A stretch of DNA of 32,000 nucleotides from Verrucomicrobia bacterium UBA3869. Its GTDB lineage: Bacteria; Verrucomicrobiota; Verrucomicrobiia; Opitutales; UBA9783. The notes beneath the pieces are model-generated. The model saw only the letters and a list, made by a program, of their open reading frames with translations, did no database searches and was not told the origin of the DNA. The stretch's first letter is position 1. Each line of letters begins with the position of its first letter. This document shows, in pieces, positions 34 through 14,075 of this stretch. A program made the position numbers and the translations under genes. Location of the stretch: assembly GCA_002392285.1 (NCBI GenBank), contig DGGR01000006.1, positions 1 to 32,000 on the forward strand, in the 5' to 3' direction.

Positions 34-60
34 GTTTGCAGGGAATTGCAAGCTTTTTTT
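34..60 (+). terminator. Rho-independent terminator candidate for a + strand gene that ends upstream of the window
   Basis: The stem is 7 bp, GTTTGCA (34-40) paired with TGCAAGC (47-53), including one G-U pair. The loop is 6 nt (GGGAAT). An uninterrupted T7 tract (54-60) follows immediately. It lies convergent to the ymdB-like gene. Confidence 0.5.
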
Positions 61-105
61 GGGGGGGGGTAGGAGCTGTGCCGCTTCTATGGCGGAGAGG
101 ATGAG

Positions 106-3708: not shown

Positions 3709-5664
3709 TTATCTCAAACGCCTTTGGATGTTTTGTTCGATTGCGGTTTTAATCGCTTCAAGTTGCTCCTTAACGCTTTGTTGGGCAGCACTTACATCCC
3801 CATTGCTAACTGGGGCTGTCCCGAACAGATACCATTTGATTTTAGGTTCAGTTCCGCTGGGGCGCACAGCTACTTCAAAGTTATTGGCTAGGCGGAATCG
3901 GATAAAGTCGGCTTTGGGAACTTGTTCGCCATCTTCATCGCTTTCATTGTGTTCGTTGAGATAATCGATGGTTTCTTTAACCGCCTGTTGTGCAATGGTA
4001 GCTGGAGGTTGTTGTCGATAAGAGTGCATCAAAGCTTGAATGCTTGCCATACCCTCTGACCCTTCAAACGTATGGCTTAACAACGCCTCTTTGAAATAAC
4101 CATACTTTCGATAAATGTTATTGAGGTAATCGGAAAAGGTGATTCCTTCGCGCTTGAAGCATGCAATCAGTTCGTAAGCCATCAAGGTAGCTGCATTCCC
4201 ATCCTTATCCCGAACTGCATCATTGGCCAAAAATCCACCGCTTTCTTCGGCTGACAACAGAAGAGCAGTTGAATGGCGCAGTAGGTTGTTAAATCGGGCT
4301 TCAGGTGTGCATCGCATATAATCAACCTGAATGCCTTGTGTGGCTCGTTCATGCTGCAACCATTGCTGTTCATAACGGAGCAACTTACCCCCAATCCACT
4401 TAAAGCCCGTGTGGGTGTTGATGCAACGGATTCCATTGGCATTTGCAATAGCCTCGAGCAAGGGGGTCGTTACAAAGGATTTGATGATCGCAAGCTTAGC
4501 GCCTTTGGAAGGAATACGCCCTAATTTCATGAGCGTGGTTAAACGGTATTCAGCCAATAGCACGGCAATGGTATTGCCGCTTAACAGTTGCCATTGCCCT
4601 TGCGCATCCTTCAGCATCATTGCCATGCGATCCCCATCCGGATCGGTTGCAATAATACCATCTGCCTGGCTTTTTTTGGCTTCCTCCAACGCAACGGTCA
4701 ATGCGTTTGGGTTACTGGGGTCAAGCGTGGTCAGGTTAGGGAATGCGCCGTTGAATGCTTTTTGCGATTCGACAATTTGAAATGACCGGCTTAGCTCTTT
4801 CATCAGAGGCATGATGCAAACCGAGCCAGTGCCATGCAATGGCGTATAAACCACCTGGGGAGCGCAGCTTTTGTCCGCCAACAATTGAGTGTCTAATAGG
4901 ACGCTTTTGCAGGTTTCACGATACGCTTGTTCAACGTTTTCGGGGATATAGAAACAGCCGTCGATGGAGGGCGTTAAAAAGGGAGGAGTGGCTTCGTAAG
5001 GTACTTGTTCGATTGACTTGATAATGTCCTCTGCACAGGAACCATTGATTTGCGCGCCATCTTCTAAATATACCTTATAGCCGTTATCGTGAAAGGGATT
5101 GTGGCTGGCGGTAATCATAACGCCTGCTGTAGCTCTTAGATAGCGTACCGAAAAACTTAATTGGGGCGTTGACCGTGGACCATTAAAAATATAAACGATT
5201 CCGCCTAATTTTAACCAAGTCGATGCGGTGAGTTCGCAAAAGTGTTTTGAAAAATAACGTGAATCGTAAGAAATAACCAAGGATGGGGGGCGCGGGTAAT
5301 CGCTAAAATGATGTTTGCAATAAGCGAATAGGCCCAGGGTCGCTCGTATAACGTTAAAATCGTTGATGCAGTAAGTCCCAACAGCTGCATGCTGGTAGGT
5401 ATTGCCTGATTTTTCTGCGCTTGTACTGATCGAACCGATGGTGCGTCCGCGCATTCCAGCTGTTCCAAACGCAATGATTTTGAAAAATCGTTCGTTTAAC
5501 TCATGCCATTGCTGCTGCTCAATGAGCTCACGTAAACTATCTGACGCCCAATTGGGCAAGCCAGGCATAGCAAGAAATTGGCAAATAAATTGAGCGGCCG
5601 ATGAGGAGAGTTGATGGTTATGAAGTGCTTCTTCGACGGAAGCGGTTACATTACGATGCGTCAT
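3709..5664 (-). CDS. Alpha-D-phosphohexomutase (phosphoglucomutase/phosphomannomutase family)
   Basis: All four family loops are present: the catalytic Ser loop TASHNPFHDNGYK, the Mg loop ATDPDGDR, the sugar loop AEESGG and the phosphate loop RPSGTEPKIK. The start overlaps the upstream gene by 14 nt (5651-5664). Confidence 0.9.
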   Translation of the reverse strand: MTHRNVTASVEEALHNHQLSSSAAQFICQFLAMPGLPNWASDSLRELIEQQQWHELNERFFKIIAFGTAGMRGRTIGSISTSAEKSGNTYQHAAVGTYCINDFNVIRATLGLFAYCKHHFSDYPRPPSLVISYDSRYFSKHFCELTASTWLKLGGIVYIFNGPRSTPQLSFSVRYLRATAGVMITASHNPFHDNGYKVYLEDGAQINGSCAEDIIKSIEQVPYEATPPFLTPSIDGCFYIPENVEQAYRETCKSVLLDTQLLADKSCAPQVVYTPLHGTGSVCIMPLMKELSRSFQIVESQKAFNGAFPNLTTLDPSNPNALTVALEEAKKSQADGIIATDPDGDRMAMMLKDAQGQWQLLSGNTIAVLLAEYRLTTLMKLGRIPSKGAKLAIIKSFVTTPLLEAIANANGIRCINTHTGFKWIGGKLLRYEQQWLQHERATQGIQVDYMRCTPEARFNNLLRHSTALLLSAEESGGFLANDAVRDKDGNAATLMAYELIACFKREGITFSDYLNNIYRKYGYFKEALLSHTFEGSEGMASIQALMHSYRQQPPATIAQQAVKETIDYLNEHNESDEDGEQVPKADFIRFRLANNFEVAVRPSGTEPKIKWYLFGTAPVSNGDVSAAQQSVKEQLEAIKTAIEQNIQRRLR

Positions 5665-7477
5665 GCAAATACAATCCCTGTAAGGTTTTAGGTTTTGGAT
5701 CCAGCTGTTTCCAGGCTTGAATGAAATCTACTTGATTATCAGCAAATAACGGACCAATTTCCATGAGAGGTGTCGGCAAATTCGTTGAAGACTCGCTCTC
5801 GCTAGCACTGACTTCAAGCGATTCGCCAGCTGCTTGGAGCCACCGATGCCAGCGATTAATTTGGTCGCGCTGACAGGTTTCGAGCGTATCCTTGCCGACA
5901 GCATTTTTAACCGGACTAAACTCATCCTTGCGGTCTACTTCCCATAAAAGCGGACGGGTAGCGACCGGTAATACGTCAAAAATGAACTGTTCTAACTTAT
6001 GACCTTCGGTTGTGTAGGTCGTTTGAGATTGAGGGTCCCAAATAGGTATTTTTTTCCGACACACATGATAAGGGAGTGCCAATTGCGCGCATTTTTGAAT
6101 AAATTCGGTTGTAATCAGATGGATTCCAGTGTTGCCAAAGCGGTAACGAAGCGCGCCTGTTGCGGTCACTTCTTGCGATAAGGCTTCTGGAAATTGATTG
6201 TATTCAATCAGCCGCAATTGATCGGCGTCCTGTACCAACAATCCTACCCGTTCTTGCGGGTCGGTTTTAACCACTACTTTGGTCGAAAAAGAGGATTGGG
6301 ATAAGCAGTGAGTGCCTAAAAACAGGGGGTCGTCCAAATGAATCAGGGGATTATCTACCTGAAAATAATAAATCGATGTAATTCCTAGGGATTTGAAAAG
6401 CTCGATGTATCCAGCATGTTCTAAGGCTTTAAACAACCCACCATGTCCATTGGGTAGAAAACAAATGTTGCCATCTGCTTTTAAAGCGCACTGACCATCG
6501 TTCAAAAACGCAGGAATGCTTCCTTGTTTGAAAAAGTGAATATAATGCGGGTCGTACCACGCTTGTTTGGCAAATGCGATTTGCGTAGCGGTATCGGTTT
6601 CTTCACTGGTCATAATAAACCAATGGAAAGGGCGTTGGTAGCGGCGTTGAAGCGCTTTTAGCTTTTCGGCAAAAACCTGATAAAGCGGTTTGTGCTGTAG
6701 AGGGGTTACAGGAACCAACCCTTTGGGGCCGTTAAATCCTAAGCGAGAGCCTAATCCACCCGCGACGGTTAAAAACGCAACGGATCCCTTACTGAAGCAA
6801 TCGATTCCTGCTTGTAACGTGCTTTGGGGTTTATATCCCTGAGCTGCTAGGGTGTCGGGATGAAGGCTGGTTGGCTCAACCCAATGCGTTCCATCCAATT
6901 CCTCAGCAGTTTCGCTTAGTGTGTTGATTAAGCGCTTCCATTCGTTCAAGGGTACTTGTTGCGCCGAAGACCAAAAATGCTGCTGTTGGTCGGGATTTAA
7001 GCACTTCAGCAGCTCATTAATAGAAGGATTGAGTTCCTTGAAAGCCGTTTGAAATGCCGATGGGGTATCAAAAAAAGAATCGTTAACGGAGTTCATTAGC
7101 ATTGGGTGCTTCCAGGAATTGTGGGGAGCGCTTTCAGGCAAAGACCGATCAACTTCTTGTAACAAGGCAAAGGTACGGTGAGCTTTTTGCAGTTCCTTAT
7201 CCCATACGAACGAAAGCCGTGGGGTTTGTTTCATCCGCACTTCTTTCCCAATAGCGTCCTGTATGTTTTTGCGGAGTTTGATGAGCAACTTAAGTGCTTG
7301 TTCTTTCTGCTCTATTTGATAGACGGAAAAATAGACGTCAGCGACTTTTAAGTTATCCGAAGCGGTCACGCGTGTAATAGTGATACTCATGGCTTCCGAT
7401 GCGTAATGTTTAAGCAAATAATCGCCAATAACCCGTTTGAGTAACTCATTCACCCGAATGATGCGCAAATTGGTCAT
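5651..7477 (-). CDS. rbfA: In-frame fusion of an N-terminal ribosome-binding factor A (about 110 aa) to a C-terminal UDPGP-family UDP-sugar/UDP-GlcNAc pyrophosphorylase (eukaryote type)
   Basis: The start is set at the ATG at 7477-7475, which forms an ATGA overlap with the infB stop. The RbfA part reads LRIIRVNELLKRVIGDYL...VADVYFSV...TPRLSFVWD. There is no stop codon before the UDPGP part, which carries LTVAGGLGSRLG, MTSEET, PNGHGG and YFQVDNPL. Internal ATGs at 7102 and 7096 are preceded by GGAAG. Confidence 0.8.
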   Translation of the reverse strand: MTNLRIIRVNELLKRVIGDYLLKHYASEAMSITITRVTASDNLKVADVYFSVYQIEQKEQALKLLIKLRKNIQDAIGKEVRMKQTPRLSFVWDKELQKAHRTFALLQEVDRSLPESAPHNSWKHPMLMNSVNDSFFDTPSAFQTAFKELNPSINELLKCLNPDQQQHFWSSAQQVPLNEWKRLINTLSETAEELDGTHWVEPTSLHPDTLAAQGYKPQSTLQAGIDCFSKGSVAFLTVAGGLGSRLGFNGPKGLVPVTPLQHKPLYQVFAEKLKALQRRYQRPFHWFIMTSEETDTATQIAFAKQAWYDPHYIHFFKQGSIPAFLNDGQCALKADGNICFLPNGHGGLFKALEHAGYIELFKSLGITSIYYFQVDNPLIHLDDPLFLGTHCLSQSSFSTKVVVKTDPQERVGLLVQDADQLRLIEYNQFPEALSQEVTATGALRYRFGNTGIHLITTEFIQKCAQLALPYHVCRKKIPIWDPQSQTTYTTEGHKLEQFIFDVLPVATRPLLWEVDRKDEFSPVKNAVGKDTLETCQRDQINRWHRWLQAAGESLEVSASESESSTNLPTPLMEIGPLFADNQVDFIQAWKQLDPKPKTLQGLYLHDAS

Positions 7478-9651
7478 AATTCCGGCAAACTTGAAACCTT
7501 TTTGTAGCATTCAATCAAATCACCCTCTTGGCAATCGGATGCAGCGTCTTCCAATCCAATTCCACATTCGGTTCCGGATTTGACTTCTGCCACATAATCC
7601 TTGAAGTGTTTGAGGGTATATGCTTTGGTTTCGGTAATGATTTTCCCTTTGCGAATCAGGCGGACAAATGCATCGCGAACGATTTGCCCTGATACCACCA
7701 TACATCCAGCAATCGTACCTTTGGATAAAGTAATGACCTTACGGATTTCAGCAGACCCAAGCTTGGTTTCGCTCCATTCTGGTTCTAGCAATTCACGCAT
7801 GGCATTTCTTACCTGCTCAATAAGTTCGTAGATAATGTTATGCTGAATCATGCGCACGCCCTTTTGTTTAGCTGCGGCTTGCACTCCATTGGCTGGTTTG
7901 GTGTTGAATCCAACGATAATCGCTTTACCTGCATGAGCGGTTTGAATATCGTTGAGCGTAATTTGTCCGACGCGGGTATCGATAATATTGAGCGCTACCT
8001 TATCGCTATGAATGCCCTTTAGGCAGGCTTCTAGCGCCTCTAAACTACCATGGACGTCGGAACGAAGTAGAACTTTCAAAGTTTTTTGCTGCTGGGTTTC
8101 CATAGCAGCCATCAAATCATCAATGCTGGAAATTTTATGAACATTGTTGCTTTGATTCTGCTTCAGTTCGCGTTCACATGCTTCTGCTTCCTTCCGGGCT
8201 TCTTTTTCGTTTTTAGAGCCTCGGAAGGTACAGCCTGCAGAAGGCATGGTGACCCATCCCGTAATTTGAACGGGTGTTGCCGGTGTAGCTTGAGCCATGC
8301 GCTTGCCATGTTCATCCAACAAACAGCGAACCTTGCATACATGAGTACCACTAACAAGGGCATCTCCTGGCTTTAACGTTCCGCTGGTGATAATGGCGGT
8401 TGTTACAATCCCTTGACCCTCTTCCGTGCGGGATTCAACCACTACACCTTCCGGTGTTCCTTTAGGATTGGCTTTTAATTCCATCATTTCAGCCTGCAAT
8501 AACACCAACTGGAGTAATTTATCAAGGTTGGTCCCTTTGAGAGCCGAAATTTCGGTGCATAGCGTATCGCCTCCCCATTCTTCTGGAGCAATCCCGTTTG
8601 CTTGCATCTGTTGTTTAATGCGATCAATGTTGGCGCCCTTAACATCCATTTTGTTGATGGCAACCACCACAGGTACATTTTCTTTCTGTGCCAATTGCAG
8701 GGATTCTTTGGTTTGAGGCATGAAGCCATCATCAGCCGCAACCACCAAAATAATGATGTCGGTTACGGTTGCTCCGCGTTGGCGGATATTTGAAAATACA
8801 GCATGTCCCGGAGTATCGAGGAAGGTAATCTTTTTCCCTTCCACCTCTACTTGATAAGCTCCAATGTGCTGGGTGATTCCACCGGCTTCTTTGGCTGCCA
8901 CATTGGCTTTACGCAGGGTGTCTAATAGGGTGGTTTTCCCATGGTCGACGTGGCCTAAAATGCACACAATGGGTGGGCGTGGCTCTAAATGATCGGCCGG
9001 TTCAACTTTGGGTTTAACAGGGACCGGTTGAACGTTGCGTTCCTGAGAACGGCGTTTGGTTTCAACCGTAAAGTGATACTTGTCTGCTAGTACCTTTAGG
9101 GCATTTTCATCCAAAACCTGACCCATGGATGCAAAAATCTTTTGATCCATTAAATCCCTAATGAGGGTAAAGGGCTTAACCTCTAATAGGTTAGCTAGTT
9201 CGGTTAAGGTAATTGGGGGCTTAATGACCCGGTTTTGCTCCATTTTGGCTGCATCCTTGTTGGCAATCGAACCTGCTGCGCTTGGTGTATTTTCGGGCTT
9301 TGCAACAGCTTTTGGGGCGGTCGCTGGTGCGGGGCGAGCAGCGATGGGTGCAGCCGGCGCAAAACTTTTCTTAAATGCATTTAAGGCAGTTATGGATTGA
9401 GAACCTCCTAGGTTTTTAGGGGAGGCTATTCGTACAGGAGCGCTTCCTATTAAAGGTTTTTTGATCGTAGGCGAAGCAACATGGGTTGATTGAGCATTGC
9501 TTTTCACCTTCTTCAATAACGCATTTGCATCGGTATCCGATAGGGTAGAAGCTGTCTCTGGCAGTGCAATACCGTACTGTTTAATCAATAAGCGGACACT
9601 TTTAATATCCTTATGCAGTTGATGAGCTAATTGATAGATGCTAACGGTCAT
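7474..9651 (-). CDS. infB: Translation initiation factor IF-2
   Basis: The G-domain motifs are [17 protein letters not shown] and NKMD. The N-terminal region is Ala/Pro-rich and low in complexity. The gene sits in the canonical position after nusA. Confidence 0.97.
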
Positions 9652-9668: not shown

Positions 9669-10940
9669 TTACTCGTTGCTTTGCGTCCCCTGAGCTTGAA
9701 GTTTATTGATGATCTTGTCGTAATCCTCCATGTTGAGTTCAGCAGCTTTAAAATCTTCTGCGGTTAAGCTACTCAGTACTTCTGGACTATTGATACCCAT
9801 ATCTACCAATTTAGCAGCGGCTACATCCGATATGCCTGCAAATTGGATCAGTGCTTGCATCGCTTGAATCTTTTTATCTTCAAAGCTTAGGTTGATGCTA
9901 TCCGCATGCTCTACTTTGATTTCGTATCCGAGTAATTGACTGGCTAACTTTAGGTTGCGTCCGCTCTTGCCTACGAAAATAGCAAAGTCTTTTTCAGGTA
10001 ATTGAAATTGGATTGTACGCGAAGCATCATCAATCGACAGGGATTGAGGAACTGCTGGCCGTGTAATTTCACTAATAAAGGTACGCAGATCATCGGAATA
10101 ACGGATAATATCAATTTTTTCCTGTTCGCCTAATGCTTTAAGAATGCATTTAATACGTGAGCCGTGCGATCCGATGCACGCACCAACAGGGTCAATGCTA
10201 GAATCGGACGATGTAACGCAAATTTTGGTTCTATATCCTGGATCTCTTACAATGGCTTTGATTTGAATCCGTGCGGGGCGTCCGTCTGACGAAACCAATT
10301 CCGGGATTTCGCGCTCTAATAATTTAATAACAAAGCCTGGTGCGGTACGGGATAATACCAATTCAGGGCCATGAGGGGTTTCCTTGATGCTTTGTAGTAA
10401 ACAATCAATGGGATCGCCTGGTTGGAATTTATCGGACCAAATAGCTTGTTTGTGAAACAAGGTGCCTTCTGCTTTTCCAAAATCGATGATCAAATTTCCG
10501 TGTTCGCTGTAGCGCATAACTCCTTGGATGATCGTGCCTACTCGATCTTGGAATTGTTCGTAAATATGCTCTTTTTCAAAACGACGAACGCTTTGGTTGA
10601 TCATTTGACGAACCGTTTGCGCTGCAATACGTCCCAATGACTCTAATTTAAGCGGTTCTTCTATAATATCCCCCAGTTTAGCTTTTGAATTTTTCTTCAA
10701 AGCCTTACTGATATGCATTTCGACATTGTCGTTAATAACCGAATCTACGACTTTATACTGAGTATAAGCTTGTAAAACTCCAGTTTTTGGATCGATAGCT
10801 ACACGAATTTCTTTCGCATCCTGATTATCCTTCAGGGCAGCTTTTTTAATGGCATTAACAATCGCAGCGATCATGTCTTCGCGGCTAATACCTTTTTCGC
10901 GTTCCATGTATTCAAAAATGGGCAACAGATCGTCTTTCAT
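9669..10940 (-). CDS. nusA: Transcription termination/antitermination factor NusA
   Basis: The start is set at the ATG at 10940 (MKDDLLPIFEYMEREKGISREDMIAAIVNAIKKA, a typical NusA N-terminus). S1 and tandem KH regions follow (for example DPVGACIGSHGSRIK). The 21 upstream codons of the track ORF contain a promoter-like sequence. Confidence 0.95.
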   Translation of the reverse strand: MKDDLLPIFEYMEREKGISREDMIAAIVNAIKKAALKDNQDAKEIRVAIDPKTGVLQAYTQYKVVDSVINDNVEMHISKALKKNSKAKLGDIIEEPLKLESLGRIAAQTVRQMINQSVRRFEKEHIYEQFQDRVGTIIQGVMRYSEHGNLIIDFGKAEGTLFHKQAIWSDKFQPGDPIDCLLQSIKETPHGPELVLSRTAPGFVIKLLEREIPELVSSDGRPARIQIKAIVRDPGYRTKICVTSSDSSIDPVGACIGSHGSRIKCILKALGEQEKIDIIRYSDDLRTFISEITRPAVPQSLSIDDASRTIQFQLPEKDFAIFVGKSGRNLKLASQLLGYEIKVEHADSINLSFEDKKIQAMQALIQFAGISDVAAAKLVDMGINSPEVLSSLTAEDFKAAELNMEDYDKIINKLQAQGTQSNE

Positions 10941-10955
10941 AAAAACTATTGCCTT

Positions 10956-10984
10956 ACTCAATAAAATCAGACGCTGTTTGTCAA
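10956..10984 (-). promoter_or_regulatory. Putative nusA-operon promoter
   Basis: On the minus strand a perfect -35 TTGACA (10984-10979) is followed by a 17-nt spacer and TTGAGT (10961-10956), about 15 nt upstream of the nusA ATG. No rimP-like gene precedes nusA. Confidence 0.35.
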
Positions 10985-11152
10985 ACTTTCCCCAAGTAAG
11001 CACGGATGGGCTTAAGCAAAGCGTTAAGCGGAGTAAGGTGGAAGAAGGGATAGGGTGGATGAAAGGTGAGCATTTTATTTTTTCGCTTGCGGTTTCTAAA
11101 ATAAAAGCTTTACGATACCTGCATCATTTGTAATGGTTTTCTGTTAAGAGCT

Positions 11153-11365
11153 ATGAGTACTGTGAGTCAAGAAGGAAATACTGAAAGTAAAAAAGAACGC
11201 GTTAATGTATGGGAATTAACGTGGTTAGATGTGGAACAGCTCAAGAAATATACGACGGAATCAGGTAGAATTTTGCCGCGTCGTGTTACACGTTTAAGCG
11301 CTATGGAACAGCGTTATGTTACGAAGCTCATCAAACGGGCTCGTAATATGTTAGCATTGCTGTAA
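11153..11365 (+). CDS. rpsR: 30S ribosomal protein S18
   Basis: The C-terminal two thirds match the S18 pattern: L.KY.TESGRILPRRVTRLSAMEQRYVTKLIKRARNMLALL. The gene stands alone, with no rpsF, ssb or rplI next to it. Confidence 0.9.
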   Translation: MSTVSQEGNTESKKERVNVWELTWLDVEQLKKYTTESGRILPRRVTRLSAMEQRYVTKLIKRARNMLALL

Positions 11366-11372
11366 TCCTTTT

Positions 11373-12370
11373 ATGCGGGCGCAGGTTGGGGTAAGTCCTA
11401 AAGAAGCAGCTGCGTGGTTGGTTAAAGGAGAACCGGTAGCGTTACCAACCGAAACCGTTTATGGGTTAGCCGCCCCTTTGTCTGCGGTTGATACGATTAA
11501 GAAAATTTATACGCTCAAGCAGCGTCCTCAAGAAAATCCATTGATTGTCCACGTATTAGGTGTGGAACAGTTACAATGGGTTGCTGAGGTTACTCCTTTG
11601 GTGCTACGTTTGGTAAAGCATTTTTGGCCCGGGCCATTAACCCTTGTGCTAAAAAAAAAGCTTGTGTGCCAGCTTGCGTAACGGCAGGTCAACCGTCAGT
11701 AGCGGTTCGTTGCCCATCGAGTTCTTTATTTCGAGCAGTTATTGAGTTGATGGGAGAACCCTTGGTAGCTCCGAGCGCTAACCGTTTCCAGCAGATCAGT
11801 CCTACATCAGCTCAGCATGTTGCGCAAGGAATGGGGGATGTAGTGGCTTACATACTCGATGGAGGTCCGTGTTCCTTTGGATTAGAATCAACCATTCTTT
11901 CTCTGGTATCGGAAGATCAACCTACCTTGTTGCGTCAAGGACCCATTACCCAAGAGTCGTTGGAGGCGTTTTTGGAACGTCCTATCCAAACACTTTCGTC
12001 CGTATCGGTTAAGGGAGTGCATTTATCTCCAGGGCTTTATAAACGTCATTATAGCCCGCAAACCCCGCTGTATTTAGTGCGTCATTTAGAGCAATTTCAG
12101 GCGCCGATTGAGCTCCGAAAGACCTTTGAAGTGGGTGCTGCGCATGTATTTTTGTATCCCCCGTGCCATCTTTTGGCGTCCAATGAGTTTGTTTTAAGTC
12201 CAAAGGGGGATTTGTCGGAAGTAGCCACCTCTTTATTTGATTGCTTGCAGCGCTTGGATAACCAACAGTGGCAGTCTATTTGGATGGAAAAGGCCCCAGA
12301 TGCAGGCATAGGAAAGGCGATTAACGACCGTTTGTCGCGCGCCGCTGTTCGGGATTTAAGCGAACTTTAG
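11373..12370 (+). pseudogene. tsaC: L-threonylcarbamoyladenylate synthase Sua5/TsaC (long form), split by a frameshift in an A9 tract at 11651-11659
   Basis: ORF 11373..11681 carries the YrdC-domain N-terminus (PTETVYGLAA, ...PLIVHV, FWPGPLTLVLKKK). ORF 11624..12370, in the frame entered by adding one nucleotide, continues with VTAGQPSVAVRCP, APSANRFQQISPTSAQHV and DGGPCSFGLESTI. Inserting one A into the A9 run gives a continuous 332-aa protein. Confidence 0.85.
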
Positions 12371-12569
12371 CGGTTATATTGATAGAATAGGTTAGGGAGC
12401 AGGGTACCGTGTGCCCAGAATTGGTTTAACGCGCAGGCACTTTGAGTATGAATATATCAGAGGGAAGTATTGATCCGAATGAATTAAAAGTGGCAAAGCA
12501 TTCTGTTCTTTTAATAGTTGACGGAGCTGTTATTTTCACTGCTTAATATAGTTTTTAATAAGAAATCTT

Positions 12570-14075
12570 GTGGAGGAGACTAGTCAGTTTTCAAAGCTTA
12601 GGGGAATCTTTTTTCCTATCTATGCTTATGAGCTCAAAAAAATCGTTCCTTTAGCTTGTATTTTATTCTTTTCGCTTTTTAACCATTATTGTCTCAAAAA
12701 CATCAAGGATTCTTTGGTGGTAACAGCGGTGGGGGCGGAAGCAATTGCCTTTATCAAATTGTTTTTGGTGCCGCCGGCAGCGATTTTATTCATGTTGGTG
12801 TATACCAAGGTCAGCGATCGCTTGAAGAACGAGCATCTGTATTATGCAACTTTGGGTTCGTTTGTTAGCTTTTTTGTCCTATTTGTATTGGTTTTGTACC
12901 CCCTAAAGAACTATGTGTGTCCATCGGCGGACAGCATCACTCGGCTTCAAACGCAATTCCCATCGTGTGGTTTGGCGTTTGCGCTTATTGGGGTTTGGCC
13001 TTATGCGCTGTTCTTTATCTTTGCAGAATTGTGGAGTACGTTTATTTTGTCGCTTTCGTTTTGGCAATTTATGAACCAAATTACGGAGTTGCAGGAAGCA
13101 AAGCGTATTTATGGGGTTTTGTTGTTATTAGGGCAGGGAGCGGTAACGATTTCAGGAGGGGTTGGCTTTATCGCTTCAAATATCCGTGAAAAGGTGTCCT
13201 GTGCTGATCCTTGGCAAATAACGCTTTATTGGCTGATTGGGTCAGTGACCGTAACCAGCATTTTGTCGATGTGCATTTATCATTGGATTTATCGACATGT
13301 TTTGACCGACAAACGATTTTACAATAAGCCGGAATTGCCCGGATTTCACGTAAAAGATAAAAAGAAAAGTAGCCTTTGGAACAGCTTAAAGGTGGTTGTG
13401 CGTTCGCATTATGTTCGCTTACTCATCTTCTTGGTATTCTGTTATAGCGTCTGCGATAACATCTTAGAGAATTTCTGGAAACATGCAGTTAAGGTTATTT
13501 ATCCCAACATCAACGATTATAATTCCTTTATGAGCGCGTACACGTTTATATACGGTATACTGTCTATGGGTGTGGTGCTCATTACCGGCTATATATTCCG
13601 GCGATTCCAATGGGGAGTTGGGGCTATGCTAACTCCTATGGTTGTGTTGGTGGGGGGTGTTTGCTTATTTCTGTCGTTTTTGGGCGAACAGTTCTTGTCG
13701 GGGAGCGTGGGAATGGTGGTAGGAATTCAAACGACCATTGTGTATGTTGGATTGATAACGTTAGTTCTTGATAAAGGGTTTAAAATGTCCTTTTTCGATA
13801 TGAGCAAAGAGATGGCGTTTATCCCCTTGGATGATGAGCTTAAGGTAAAAGGTAAGGCAATTACGGATGTGTTTGGTTATCGCTTTGGAAAATCTTTTGG
13901 TTCGGGCTTACAGGTGATTCTGTTGTCCTTGGTAAGCGCTTTATCAGGAGTTAAGGCAACCTACGAAAGCATTGCGATCTATGCGTTTGTGGTATTTTTA
14001 ACCTGTGCGACCGTGTGGGTTATTTCGGTGTTCCGGTTGAATCGCAAAATTCAAAGAAGTCGAGAATTATCCTAA
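12570..14075 (+). CDS. tlc: TLC-family nucleotide transporter (ATP/ADP translocase type, as in Chlamydiae, Rickettsiales and plastids)
   Basis: The start is GTG. The N-terminus FSKLRGIFFPIYAYELKKIVPL...NIKDSLVV matches, from memory, the conserved start of chlamydial Npt and rickettsial Tlc proteins. The 501 aa contain about 12 hydrophobic segments. Confidence 0.85.
   Translation: MEETSQFSKLRGIFFPIYAYELKKIVPLACILFFSLFNHYCLKNIKDSLVVTAVGAEAIAFIKLFLVPPAAILFMLVYTKVSDRLKNEHLYYATLGSFVSFFVLFVLVLYPLKNYVCPSADSITRLQTQFPSCGLAFALIGVWPYALFFIFAELWSTFILSLSFWQFMNQITELQEAKRIYGVLLLLGQGAVTISGGVGFIASNIREKVSCADPWQITLYWLIGSVTVTSILSMCIYHWIYRHVLTDKRFYNKPELPGFHVKDKKKSSLWNSLKVVVRSHYVRLLIFLVFCYSVCDNILENFWKHAVKVIYPNINDYNSFMSAYTFIYGILSMGVVLITGYIFRRFQWGVGAMLTPMVVLVGGVCLFLSFLGEQFLSGSVGMVVGIQTTIVYVGLITLVLDKGFKMSFFDMSKEMAFIPLDDELKVKGKAITDVFGYRFGKSFGSGLQVILLSLVSALSGVKATYESIAIYAFVVFLTCATVWVISVFRLNRKIQRSRELS

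What the first reader, a model, noticed from the sequence alone, without database searches (positions are those of the whole stretch)
11651..11659. A9 homopolymer frameshift splits sua5/tsaC (t6A synthesis); one extra A restores a 332-aa protein
Seen in sequence: the first frame reads ...WPGPLTLVLKKKLVCQLA and then stops. With a tenth A it reads ...WPGPLTLVLKKKACVPACVTAGQPSVAVRCP... and continues through the whole Sua5 C-terminal region to 12370. Established knowledge: TsaC/Sua5 makes threonylcarbamoyl-AMP for the near-universal tRNA t6A37 modification. In reduced insect-endosymbiont genomes (Buchnera, Blochmannia), frameshifts in long poly(A) tracts are known to be partially rescued by transcriptional slippage. 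Inference: this is a sequencing or assembly indel, a slippage-dependent gene, or a very young pseudogene. The downstream part looks undegraded, which argues against long-term inactivation.
Basis: partly seen in the sequence, partly recalled or inferred. Interest (0 to 1): 0.6.

Follow-up and report, generated by a model that had tools for sequence, protein, structure and literature searches.

The report
Conserved poly-A frameshift in sua5 gene
The gene for a near-universal tRNA-modification enzyme (Sua5/TsaC) is split by a run of nine A's in a whole group of gut Opitutales bacteria, yet both halves are under normal purifying selection, so the cell most likely makes the full enzyme by slipping one base at the A run.

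Summary
An A9 run at 11651-11659 ends the sua5 reading frame after 102 codons, and one extra A gives a 332-aa Sua5 that matches solved structures without a gap across the junction.

It is not an assembly error. Seventeen of 18 independently assembled relatives (87.6-98% nucleotide identity) carry the same A9 and the same split. These include a horse-faeces Opitutales MAG and many ENA and Logan contigs.

It is not a pseudogene. Among A9 carriers the downstream part has dN/dS 0.07-0.12 at dS up to 0.5, the same as neighbouring genes (0.03-0.14). It has no stops or indels.

A9 is ancestral to the clade. The single in-frame A10 contig is a recent revertant nested inside it.

The zero frame reads CUA AAA AAA AAG. 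This is both an A9 transcriptional-slippage tract and the classic -1 ribosomal frameshift heptamer A_AAA_AAG, in phase. Both routes give the same protein (...LKKKACVP...). I found no RNA stimulator, so I favour transcriptional slippage, with ribosomal frameshifting possibly contributing.

This is a new member of a known kind: a conserved homopolymer frameshift rescued by slippage.

One idea is untested. Sua5 makes t6A37 on the tRNA-Lys that reads the slip site, so feedback control is conceivable.

The parts
11153..11365 (+). rpsR (ribosomal protein S18). It ends 8 nt before the sua5 start and is probably co-transcribed with it.
   Evidence: ORF. Pfam Ribosomal_S18 is recorded on the orthologous genes. 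The consensus scan found no promoter-like or terminator-like site on this strand between the two genes.
11373..11681 (+). sua5 zero-frame part (ORF1, 102 codons). Residues 1-96 are the N-terminal half of the YrdC-like catalytic domain and include the KxR motif (K49-R51). They are followed by a 6-residue out-of-frame tail (LVCQLA) and a TAA stop at 11679-11681.
   Evidence: The tail differs between relatives (LVCQLA or PVCQLA).
11651..11659 (+). A9 homopolymer, the proposed slippage tract. Codon phase: CTA 11649-51, AAA 11652-54, AAA 11655-57, AAG 11658-60.
   Evidence: The tract is identical in 17 of 18 related loci.
11654..11660 (+). A_AAA_AAG heptamer in the zero-frame phase, the classic bacterial -1 ribosomal frameshift site. 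A second in-phase heptamer, A_AAA_AAA, lies at 11651-11657.
   Evidence: Phase is derived from the ORF1 start at 11373. A_AAA_AAG is the dnaX shift site and the most shift-prone such heptamer tested in E. coli (PMC5009743).
11660..12370 (+). sua5 -1-frame part (residues 97-332). It holds the rest of the YrdC-like domain, including the SxN motif (S134-N136), and the Sua5_C domain. The stop is at 12368-12370.
   Evidence: dN/dS is 0.07-0.12 among the more diverged A9 carriers, against 1.6-2.5 for the other two frames of the same DNA in those comparisons. The binomial test gives p of about 1e-17.

Best explanation
This is a functional sua5 (threonylcarbamoyl-AMP synthase) gene whose full-length 332-aa product depends on a one-base slip at the A9 run.

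Standard decoding gives a 102-aa truncated peptide. This peptide lacks the SxN half of the active site and is probably useless.

A fraction of expression events move to the -1 frame. There are two possible routes:
- RNA polymerase adds one untemplated A while transcribing the A9 tract. I favour this as the main route.
- The ribosome slips back one base on A_AAA_AAG.

Both routes yield ...LVLKKK-ACVPACVTAG... and the complete enzyme.

**Shown:** the split is real, it is ancestral to a clade of gut Opitutales, and the downstream frame is under normal purifying selection.

**Inferred:** the shift happens at the A run, the mechanism is slippage, and the frameshift lowers Sua5 output relative to the co-transcribed rpsR.
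For: 1. The A9 run and the same 102-codon ORF1 plus -1-frame ORF2 arrangement occur in 17 of 18 independently assembled loci. They come from different samples and assemblers (ENA MEGAHIT and SPAdes scaffolds, Logan contigs, and the NCBI horse-faeces MAG JAKSVZ01). Their sua5 sequences are 87.6-98% identical to the window at the nucleotide level.
2. A tree rooted with intact relatives is ((L002,L013),(L008,(L012,(window,L001,L014-16)))). A9 is therefore ancestral, and the single A10 contig (L012) is nested within the clade. Its closest relatives at 97.5% identity (L024, L025) are A9.
3. dN/dS of the downstream part among the more diverged A9 carriers is 0.07-0.12 at dS 0.32-0.50. For example, one pair shows 60.5 synonymous against 29.5 non-synonymous differences, binomial p = 1e-17. 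The other two frames of the same DNA give 1.6-2.5 in those comparisons. There are no internal indels or premature stops in about 236 codons (L008 merely ends two codons early). A neutral simulation gives a mean of 3.6 stops and P(no stop) = 0.02.
4. Thirteen neighbouring genes in the same genome pairs have dN/dS 0.03-0.21, twelve of them 0.03-0.14, so selection on sua5 is not relaxed.
5. Solved Sua5 structures align continuously across the junction, which places the shift between L93 and A97, inside the run.
6. More distant relatives (64-66% identity) are intact. They encode the same LKKK(A/L/P) without an A run, for example TTG AAG AAG AAA GCG.
7. Literature precedent:
   - An A9 run gives about 50% non-standard product in Thermus dnaX. 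Conservation of the ORF organisation between non-identical homologues is the published criterion for functional slippage (PMC1088944).
   - Conserved poly(A) frameshifts in Blochmannia and Buchnera yield about 30% full-length transcripts (PMC3017870).
   - A_AAA_AAG is the E. coli dnaX site, and a 3' CC is the most shift-prone context (PMC5009743). Most clade members read AAG CC.
Against: - There is no direct RNA or protein evidence.
- No stimulatory RNA structure was found downstream. The MFE z-score is -0.32, and the 8-sequence consensus fold has a covariation term near zero, with one compensatory change among 32 predicted pairs.
- By eye, there is no Shine-Dalgarno-like element upstream. 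Efficient -1 ribosomal frameshifting is therefore not supported.
- Synonymous sites around the tract are not unusually conserved, so tract conservation alone is not statistically compelling.
- Sequence alone cannot exclude that the two halves are made as separate polypeptides.
- Whether the genome has a second TsaC/Sua5 copy could not be checked.
Confidence: 0.8

Rival explanations
1. Split gene. The two halves are translated as separate polypeptides: ORF1, and ORF2 started at an internal GTG or TTG or by termination-reinitiation near the TAA at 11679. The halves then assemble non-covalently into an active enzyme.
For: Both halves are under purifying selection. In the -1 frame, a GTG at 11666 lies 13 nt before the ORF1 stop, and gene callers used it or the TTG at 11624 as a start. 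The break falls between conserved blocks (FWPGPLT and SVAVR) and so could be in a loop (this is an inference).
Against: All other Sua5 homologues are single chains. The split separates the KxR and SxN halves of one catalytic domain. By eye, no ribosome-binding site precedes the candidate starts. A lineage nested in the clade reverted to a single in-frame ORF by a change in the tract (L012). The break sits exactly on a slippage-prone A9 / A_AAA_AAG site.
Confidence: 0.09
2. Phase-variable (contingency) locus. Replication slippage switches the tract between A9 (off) and A10 (on) at the DNA level, and selection acts only on the on-cells.
For: Homopolymers of 9-10 A are highly mutable (established knowledge). 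One relative carries an in-frame A10 (L012).
Against: The consensus is A9 in 17 of 18 assemblies. The off state would therefore dominate for a near-universal housekeeping function. dN/dS is as low as in neighbouring housekeeping genes.
Confidence: 0.05
3. Decaying pseudogene. t6A synthesis would be supplied by another copy or lost.
For: The ORF is formally disrupted. Public annotations list two separate proteins. The lineage carries an ATP/ADP translocase, which hints at a host-dependent lifestyle.
Against: dN/dS is 0.07-0.12 over dS of about 0.5. There are no stops or internal indels (neutral P(no stop) = 0.02). Selection equals that on neighbours.
Confidence: 0.03
4. Sequencing or assembly error. 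The true tract is A10.
For: Homopolymers are error-prone on some platforms.
Against: Seventeen independent assemblies from different studies and assemblers agree on A9 while differing at many flanking synonymous sites. An A10 variant was assembled where it exists.
Confidence: 0.02

Closest known systems
Conserved poly(A)-tract frameshifts rescued by transcriptional slippage in Blochmannia and Buchnera (Tamas et al. 2008; Wernegreen et al. 2010; summarised in PMC3017870)
   Same: A single-base frameshift inside a long A run of an essential housekeeping gene. It is conserved between species, with no degradation of the downstream frame. Full-length product is expected from a minority of slipped transcripts.
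   Different: Those genomes are tiny and very AT-rich, with many such tracts and frameshifts. This window is 45% G+C, densely coding, and has only one A run of 8 or more. The gene affected (sua5) was not found reported in the library.
Thermus thermophilus dnaX A9 transcriptional slippage; Shigella mxiE; Citrobacter and Yersinia tssM A11 (PMC1088944, PMC4256274)
   Same: A homopolymer of nine or more A/T inside a chromosomal gene. As in mxiE and tssM, slippage is needed to make the longer, full-length protein.
   Different: In dnaX and tssM both products are functional. Here there is no evidence that the 102-aa product has a role.
E. coli dnaX and IS3-family -1 programmed ribosomal frameshifting at A_AAA_AAG (PMC5009743)
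   Same: The identical heptamer in the correct zero-frame phase, with a -1 shift into the extending frame as in IS3 OrfAB.
   Different: dnaX and IS3 have an upstream SD-like element and/or a downstream stem-loop or pseudoknot. None is detectable here.
prfB (RF2) +1 frameshift autoregulation
   Same: Only as a concept. The gene product's own activity could set the frameshift efficiency, because Sua5 leads to t6A37 on tRNA-Lys, which decodes the slip site.
   Different: The direction and mechanism differ, and the feedback here is purely hypothetical.

Membership tests
Sua5/TsaC L-threonylcarbamoyladenylate synthase (TIGR00057; Pfam PF01300 + PF03481) | YrdC-like catalytic domain scoring above the curated cut-off | tested here: met
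   On the restored protein, PF01300 scores 180.7 bits (cut-off 25.1) and TIGR00057 scores 157.5 bits (cut-off 123.2).
Sua5/TsaC L-threonylcarbamoyladenylate synthase (TIGR00057; Pfam PF01300 + PF03481) | Sua5-type C-terminal domain (the long form, as opposed to the short TsaC/YrdC form) | tested here: met
   PF03481 scores 78.5 bits over residues 192-325. The protein aligns end to end with Sua5 structures 9d3h, 6f87 and 2eqa.
Sua5/TsaC L-threonylcarbamoyladenylate synthase (TIGR00057; Pfam PF01300 + PF03481) | Conserved KxR and SxN active-site motifs | tested here: met
   LKQRP (K49-R51) and APSAN (S134-N136) align with the same motifs in the PDB homologues. The motif names come from my own knowledge of the Sua5 literature.
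Sua5/TsaC L-threonylcarbamoyladenylate synthase (TIGR00057; Pfam PF01300 + PF03481) | Encoded as one continuous ORF | tested here: not met
   The gene is split after codon 96 by the A9 run. Making the full protein requires recoding.
Sua5/TsaC L-threonylcarbamoyladenylate synthase (TIGR00057; Pfam PF01300 + PF03481) | Makes TC-AMP for t6A37, with TsaB/D/E partners present in the genome | not testable with these tools
   Only about 32 kb of the genome is available, and no tsaB, tsaD or tsaE lies in the window.
Functionally utilised transcriptional slippage (criteria of Baranov et al. 2005) | A run of nine or more A or T at the junction of two overlapping ORFs, where slippage gives a longer product | tested here: met
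   A9 at 11651-11659 lies inside the 58-nt overlap of ORF1 and ORF2.
Functionally utilised transcriptional slippage (criteria of Baranov et al. 2005) | [quoted passage not shown] | tested here: met
   About ten distinct sequences, down to 87.6% nucleotide identity, share it.
Functionally utilised transcriptional slippage (criteria of Baranov et al. 2005) | A heterogeneous mRNA population (A10 transcripts from an A9 template) | not testable with these tools
   This needs RNA-seq or cDNA amplicon sequencing.
-1 programmed ribosomal frameshifting (dnaX / IS3 type) | Slippery heptamer X_XXY_YYZ in the zero-frame phase | tested here: met
   A_AAA_AAG at 11654-11660 (PMC5009743).
-1 programmed ribosomal frameshifting (dnaX / IS3 type) | A downstream stimulatory stem-loop or pseudoknot 5-9 nt after the heptamer | tested here: not met
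   The MFE z-score is -0.32. The consensus fold has a covariation term near zero (+0.05 kcal/mol), with one compensatory change among 32 pairs. The only local hairpin is weak (6 pairs, 2 of them G-U) and begins 11 nt downstream.
-1 programmed ribosomal frameshifting (dnaX / IS3 type) | An upstream internal Shine-Dalgarno-like stimulator | tested here: not met
   No GGAGG-like element occurs in the 30 nt upstream (GGCCCGGGCCATTAACCCTTGTGCT, by inspection).
Endosymbiont poly(A) frameshift syndrome (Buchnera / Blochmannia) | An AT-rich reduced genome with many long poly(A) tracts and several frameshifted genes | tested here: not met
   The window is 42-47% G+C. It has one A run of 8 or more in 32 kb. 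All other large ORFs have full-length family matches.

The most novel reading that the evidence does not exclude
The frameshift is a self-regulating sensor of t6A status. Sua5 produces the TC-AMP needed for t6A37, and in bacteria this modification is carried by the tRNA-Lys(UUU) that decodes the AAA AAA AAG slip site.

When t6A is scarce, under-modified tRNA-Lys would hold the frame less well and slip to -1 more often on A_AAA_AAG. That would make more full-length Sua5. When t6A is sufficient, most ribosomes would terminate after 102 codons.

This would be a homeostatic recoding loop analogous to RF2/prfB, but sensing a tRNA modification.
Probability: 0.1. Interest if true: 0.8.

Novelty: new member of a known kind. 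Interest (0 to 1): 0.5.

Why it matters
First, it corrects annotation. Public records list the two halves as a "hypothetical protein" plus a truncated "TsaC". Metabolic reconstructions could therefore score this lineage as lacking or having a broken t6A pathway.

Second, it adds a clear, phylogenetically supported case of a long-maintained homopolymer frameshift in a housekeeping gene. This case lies outside the AT-rich insect endosymbionts where the phenomenon was defined.

Third, the slip site is read by a tRNA that depends on the gene's own product. That gives a directly testable model for feedback between tRNA modification and recoding.

Tried and rejected
- **Downstream frameshift stimulator.** A single-sequence fold (z = -0.32) and an 8-sequence consensus fold (covariation term near zero) gave no support.
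- **Extra conservation of synonymous sites around the tract.** The invariant run of 6 codons after the tract is shorter than other invariant runs in the gene (11, 10 and 9 codons). This is not evidence.
- **Exact-pattern scan of JGI metagenome contigs for A8-A11 variants of the site.** No hits. All relatives came from the protein index instead.
- **tRNA-Lys complement.** I looked for tRNA-Lys genes to judge AAG decoding. Only tRNA-Met and tRNA-Gln are in the window, and none is in L006, L008 or L013.
- **Rfam scan of the window.** It found only the two tRNAs.
- **Promoter and terminator scan of 10900-12700.** No promoter-like or terminator-like site on the coding strand between rpsR and sua5.
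- **Literature search for a reported frameshift in sua5, tsaC or yrdC.** None found.
- **Truncated homologues P0058 and P0059 as possible further split genes.** They are contig-edge fragments that read straight through the site.
- **GCAAGCTTTTT as a recurring motif.** At chance level in the window.

Full report
**1. The observation**

The window reads ...GTG CTA AAA AAA AAG CTT GTG TGC CAG CTT GCG TAA. The A9 run is at 11651-11659. It is the only A run of 8 or more in the 32 kb.

ORF1 (11373-11681) ends ...WPGPLTLVLKKKLVCQLA followed by a stop. A second ORF in the -1 frame runs to 12370. Inserting one A gives a 332-aa protein.

That protein matches Pfam Sua5_yciO_yrdC (16-190) and Sua5_C (192-325). 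It also passes the NCBIfam equivalog TIGR00057 for L-threonylcarbamoyladenylate synthase. Solved Sua5 structures (9d3h, 6f87, 2eqa) align from about residue 10 to about 326. Across the junction 6f87 aligns with no gap and 9d3h with a one-residue gap. The frame change therefore has to occur between Leu93 and Ala97, inside the run.

**2. Not an assembly error**

The closest database proteins were only the C-terminal part (P0001 at 97% identity, P0002 at 89%). Their contigs show the same 102-codon ORF1 plus a -1-frame ORF2 and the same A9.

A scan of GTDB species representatives found a syntenic horse-faeces MAG, "Opitutales bacterium Horse_feces372" (JAKSVZ010000006). It is 93% identical to the window over about 19 kb and also carries A9.

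The protein clusters hold about 30 member sequences of the split form on dozens of contigs from ENA, Logan, NCBI and JGI. I read 18 loci of the clade. Seventeen have A9 with the downstream frame open to its stop, to the contig end, or (L018) to a scaffolding gap of Ns.

These loci differ from one another at many synonymous positions and come from different assemblers. A shared artefact is therefore not credible.

Public annotation treats the halves as two proteins: HCI56900.1 "hypothetical" plus HCI56899.1 "TsaC", and MCQ2955936.1 plus MCQ2955935.1.

**3. Not a pseudogene**

Pairwise Nei-Gojobori estimates among A9 carriers:

| Region or control | dN/dS | Source |
|---|---|---|
| sua5 upstream part | 0.05-0.09 | |
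| sua5 downstream part, more diverged pairs (dS 0.32-0.50) | 0.07-0.12 | |
| Same downstream DNA read in the other two frames, same pairs | 1.6-2.5 | |
| Thirteen neighbouring genes, same genome pairs | 0.03-0.21 (twelve at 0.03-0.14) | |

- For window versus L002 the downstream part has 60.5 synonymous and 29.5 non-synonymous differences. The binomial test against neutrality gives p = 1e-17.
- A neutral simulation with 90 substitutions gives a mean of 3.6 stop codons and P(no stop) = 0.02. None is observed, and there are no internal indels.
- Selection on sua5 is therefore not relaxed relative to its neighbours.

**4. Age and polarity**

More distant relatives (64-66% identity, also next to rpsR and often next to a TLC gene) are intact. 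They encode the same Leu-Lys-Lys-Lys without a homopolymer (TTG AAG AAG AAA GCG).

A neighbour-joining tree of the codon alignment, rooted with them, gives ((L002,L013),(L008,(L012,(window,L001,L014-16)))).

A9 is found on every deep branch and so is ancestral to the clade. The only in-frame sequence is L012, which has A10 followed by TCC and encodes the 332-aa P0150. It is nested in the clade. Its two nearest relatives at 97.5% identity, L024 and L025, are A9. L012 is therefore a recent reversion.

The reversion shows that the single-chain protein is the functional form. It also shows that tract-length change happens, yet A9 has persisted through dS of about 0.5.

**5. Mechanism**

In the zero frame the site is CUA AAA AAA AAG. 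Two established routes lead from it to the -1 frame, and they give the same protein.

*(a) Transcriptional slippage on the A9 tract.*
- An A9 run gives about 50% non-standard product in Thermus dnaX.
- Shigella mxiE and Citrobacter tssM need such slippage to make the long product.
- Baranov et al. treat conserved ORF organisation between non-identical homologues as the sign of functional use (PMC1088944; PMC4256274).
- In Blochmannia and Buchnera, conserved poly(A) frameshifts give about 30% full-length transcripts (PMC3017870).

*(b) -1 ribosomal frameshifting on A_AAA_AAG (11654-11660).*
- This is the E. coli dnaX site and the most shift-prone such heptamer tested in that organism. A 3' CC is the most shift-prone context (PMC5009743).
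- Most clade members read AAG CC, while the window reads AAG CU.

I found no downstream stimulatory structure (z = -0.32; covariation term near zero) and no upstream SD-like element. I therefore rank transcriptional slippage as the main route, with unstimulated ribosomal slippage as a possible contributor. This ranking is inference, because sequence alone cannot separate the two.

sua5 starts 8 nt after rpsR, with no promoter or terminator signal on that strand between them. A plausible but untested consequence is that the frameshift scales Sua5 output down relative to a highly expressed ribosomal protein gene.

**6. Rivals**

- **Split gene with two polypeptides.** This cannot be excluded from sequence. 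It is disfavoured because the break separates the KxR (ORF1) and SxN (ORF2) halves of one catalytic domain. All other homologues are single chains. A nested lineage re-fused the frames. The break also lies exactly on a slippery site.
- **Phase variation.** This is disfavoured because the "off" length is the consensus in 17 of 18 assemblies.
- **Pseudogene and assembly error.** Both are effectively refuted (sections 2 and 3).

**7. Comparison with known systems and novelty**

This is the same kind of feature as the "ancient frameshifts in homopolymeric tracts" of insect endosymbionts and the slippage-dependent mxiE and tssM genes. It differs in genomic setting: 45% G+C, dense intact genes, and a single long A run in 32 kb. 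It also differs in the gene affected.

I found no report of a frameshifted sua5, tsaC or yrdC in the searchable literature. I classify it as a new member of a known kind.

**8. The most novel reading**

t6A37 is present on ANN-decoding tRNAs, including tRNA-Lys(UUU), and contributes to frame maintenance. Loss of Sua5 or Kae1 in yeast increases +1 and -1 frameshifting (PMC4717488). However, a human-cell reporter saw no +1 shift at AAA on t6A depletion (PMC8887486).

The slip site of this sua5 gene consists entirely of Lys codons. A negative feedback loop is therefore conceivable: low t6A leads to more slipping, which leads to more Sua5. Nothing in the sequence data tests this. It would require the ribosomal route to contribute substantially, and the lack of stimulators argues against that. 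I give it about 10%.

**9. Verdict**

The frameshift is old, conserved and tolerated or used, most probably through slippage at the A run. Interest is moderate. It is a clean comparative case and an annotation correction, with one attractive experimental hypothesis.

Noticed in passing
window 12570-14075 (+): A TLC-family ATP/ADP translocase (Pfam TLC, 457 bits) lies directly downstream of sua5 in this gut Opitutales lineage. It is also next to sua5 in the 65%-identity relatives L003 and L004. It suggests nucleotide or energy scavenging from a eukaryotic host, for example a hindgut protist.
   Followed up: no
window 5651-7510 (-): rbfA and a UDP-glucose pyrophosphorylase gene form one continuous 619-aa ORF in the window. 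A one-base difference in a C run (GCTCCCCACAATT here, GCTCCTACGATT in L013) removes rbfA's own stop. In L013 they are two genes overlapping at TAATG. L008 has a third version of the RbfA tail.
   Followed up: partly
L026 1084-1140 (ENA ERZ914824 scaffold_98660): A different lineage (N-terminal part 71% identical, similar to P0003) has an independent frameshift at the homologous Lys-Lys-Lys site. It has an A7 run (TTGAAAAAAAGCCG), where A8 would be in frame. The -1 frame stays open for more than 150 codons to the contig end. This rests on a single contig, so it may be an error. It suggests the site is a hotspot for A-run indels.
   Followed up: partly
L012 1476-1488 (Logan SRR24912631): This is the only in-frame relative. 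It has A10 followed by TCC (Lys-Lys-Lys-Ser), giving a 332-aa Sua5 (P0150). It is nested within the A9 clade, and its 97.5%-identical neighbours L024 and L025 are A9.
   Followed up: yes
L008 10993-12249, compared with window 12371-12569: The horse-faeces MAG has a 1.2-kb AT-rich stretch between sua5 and the TLC gene, with no ORF longer than 69 codons. It contains two copies of CCAGAATTGGCTTGAC. The window has one copy (CCAGAATTGGTTTAAC at 12415-12430; chance expectation 0.01).
   Followed up: partly
window 54-69: A T7 run is followed immediately by a G9 run (TTTTTTTGGGGGGGGG) in the intergenic DNA 3' of ymdB. It is the longest G run in the window.
   Followed up: no
L027 92-400 (ENA ERZ28613795, 516-bp contig): An ORF1 variant (P0152) has an unrelated N-terminus of about 25 residues, followed by sequence nearly identical to the clade (one difference, V to E just before the tract) and the same A9. 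It may be a chimeric assembly or a recombinant.
   Followed up: no
window 11373-12370; public records HCI56900.1/HCI56899.1 and MCQ2955936.1/MCQ2955935.1: Public MAG annotations list the two halves as separate proteins ('hypothetical protein' or 'Sua5/YciO/YrdC/YwlC family protein', plus 'TsaC'). The frameshift is not flagged.
   Followed up: yes
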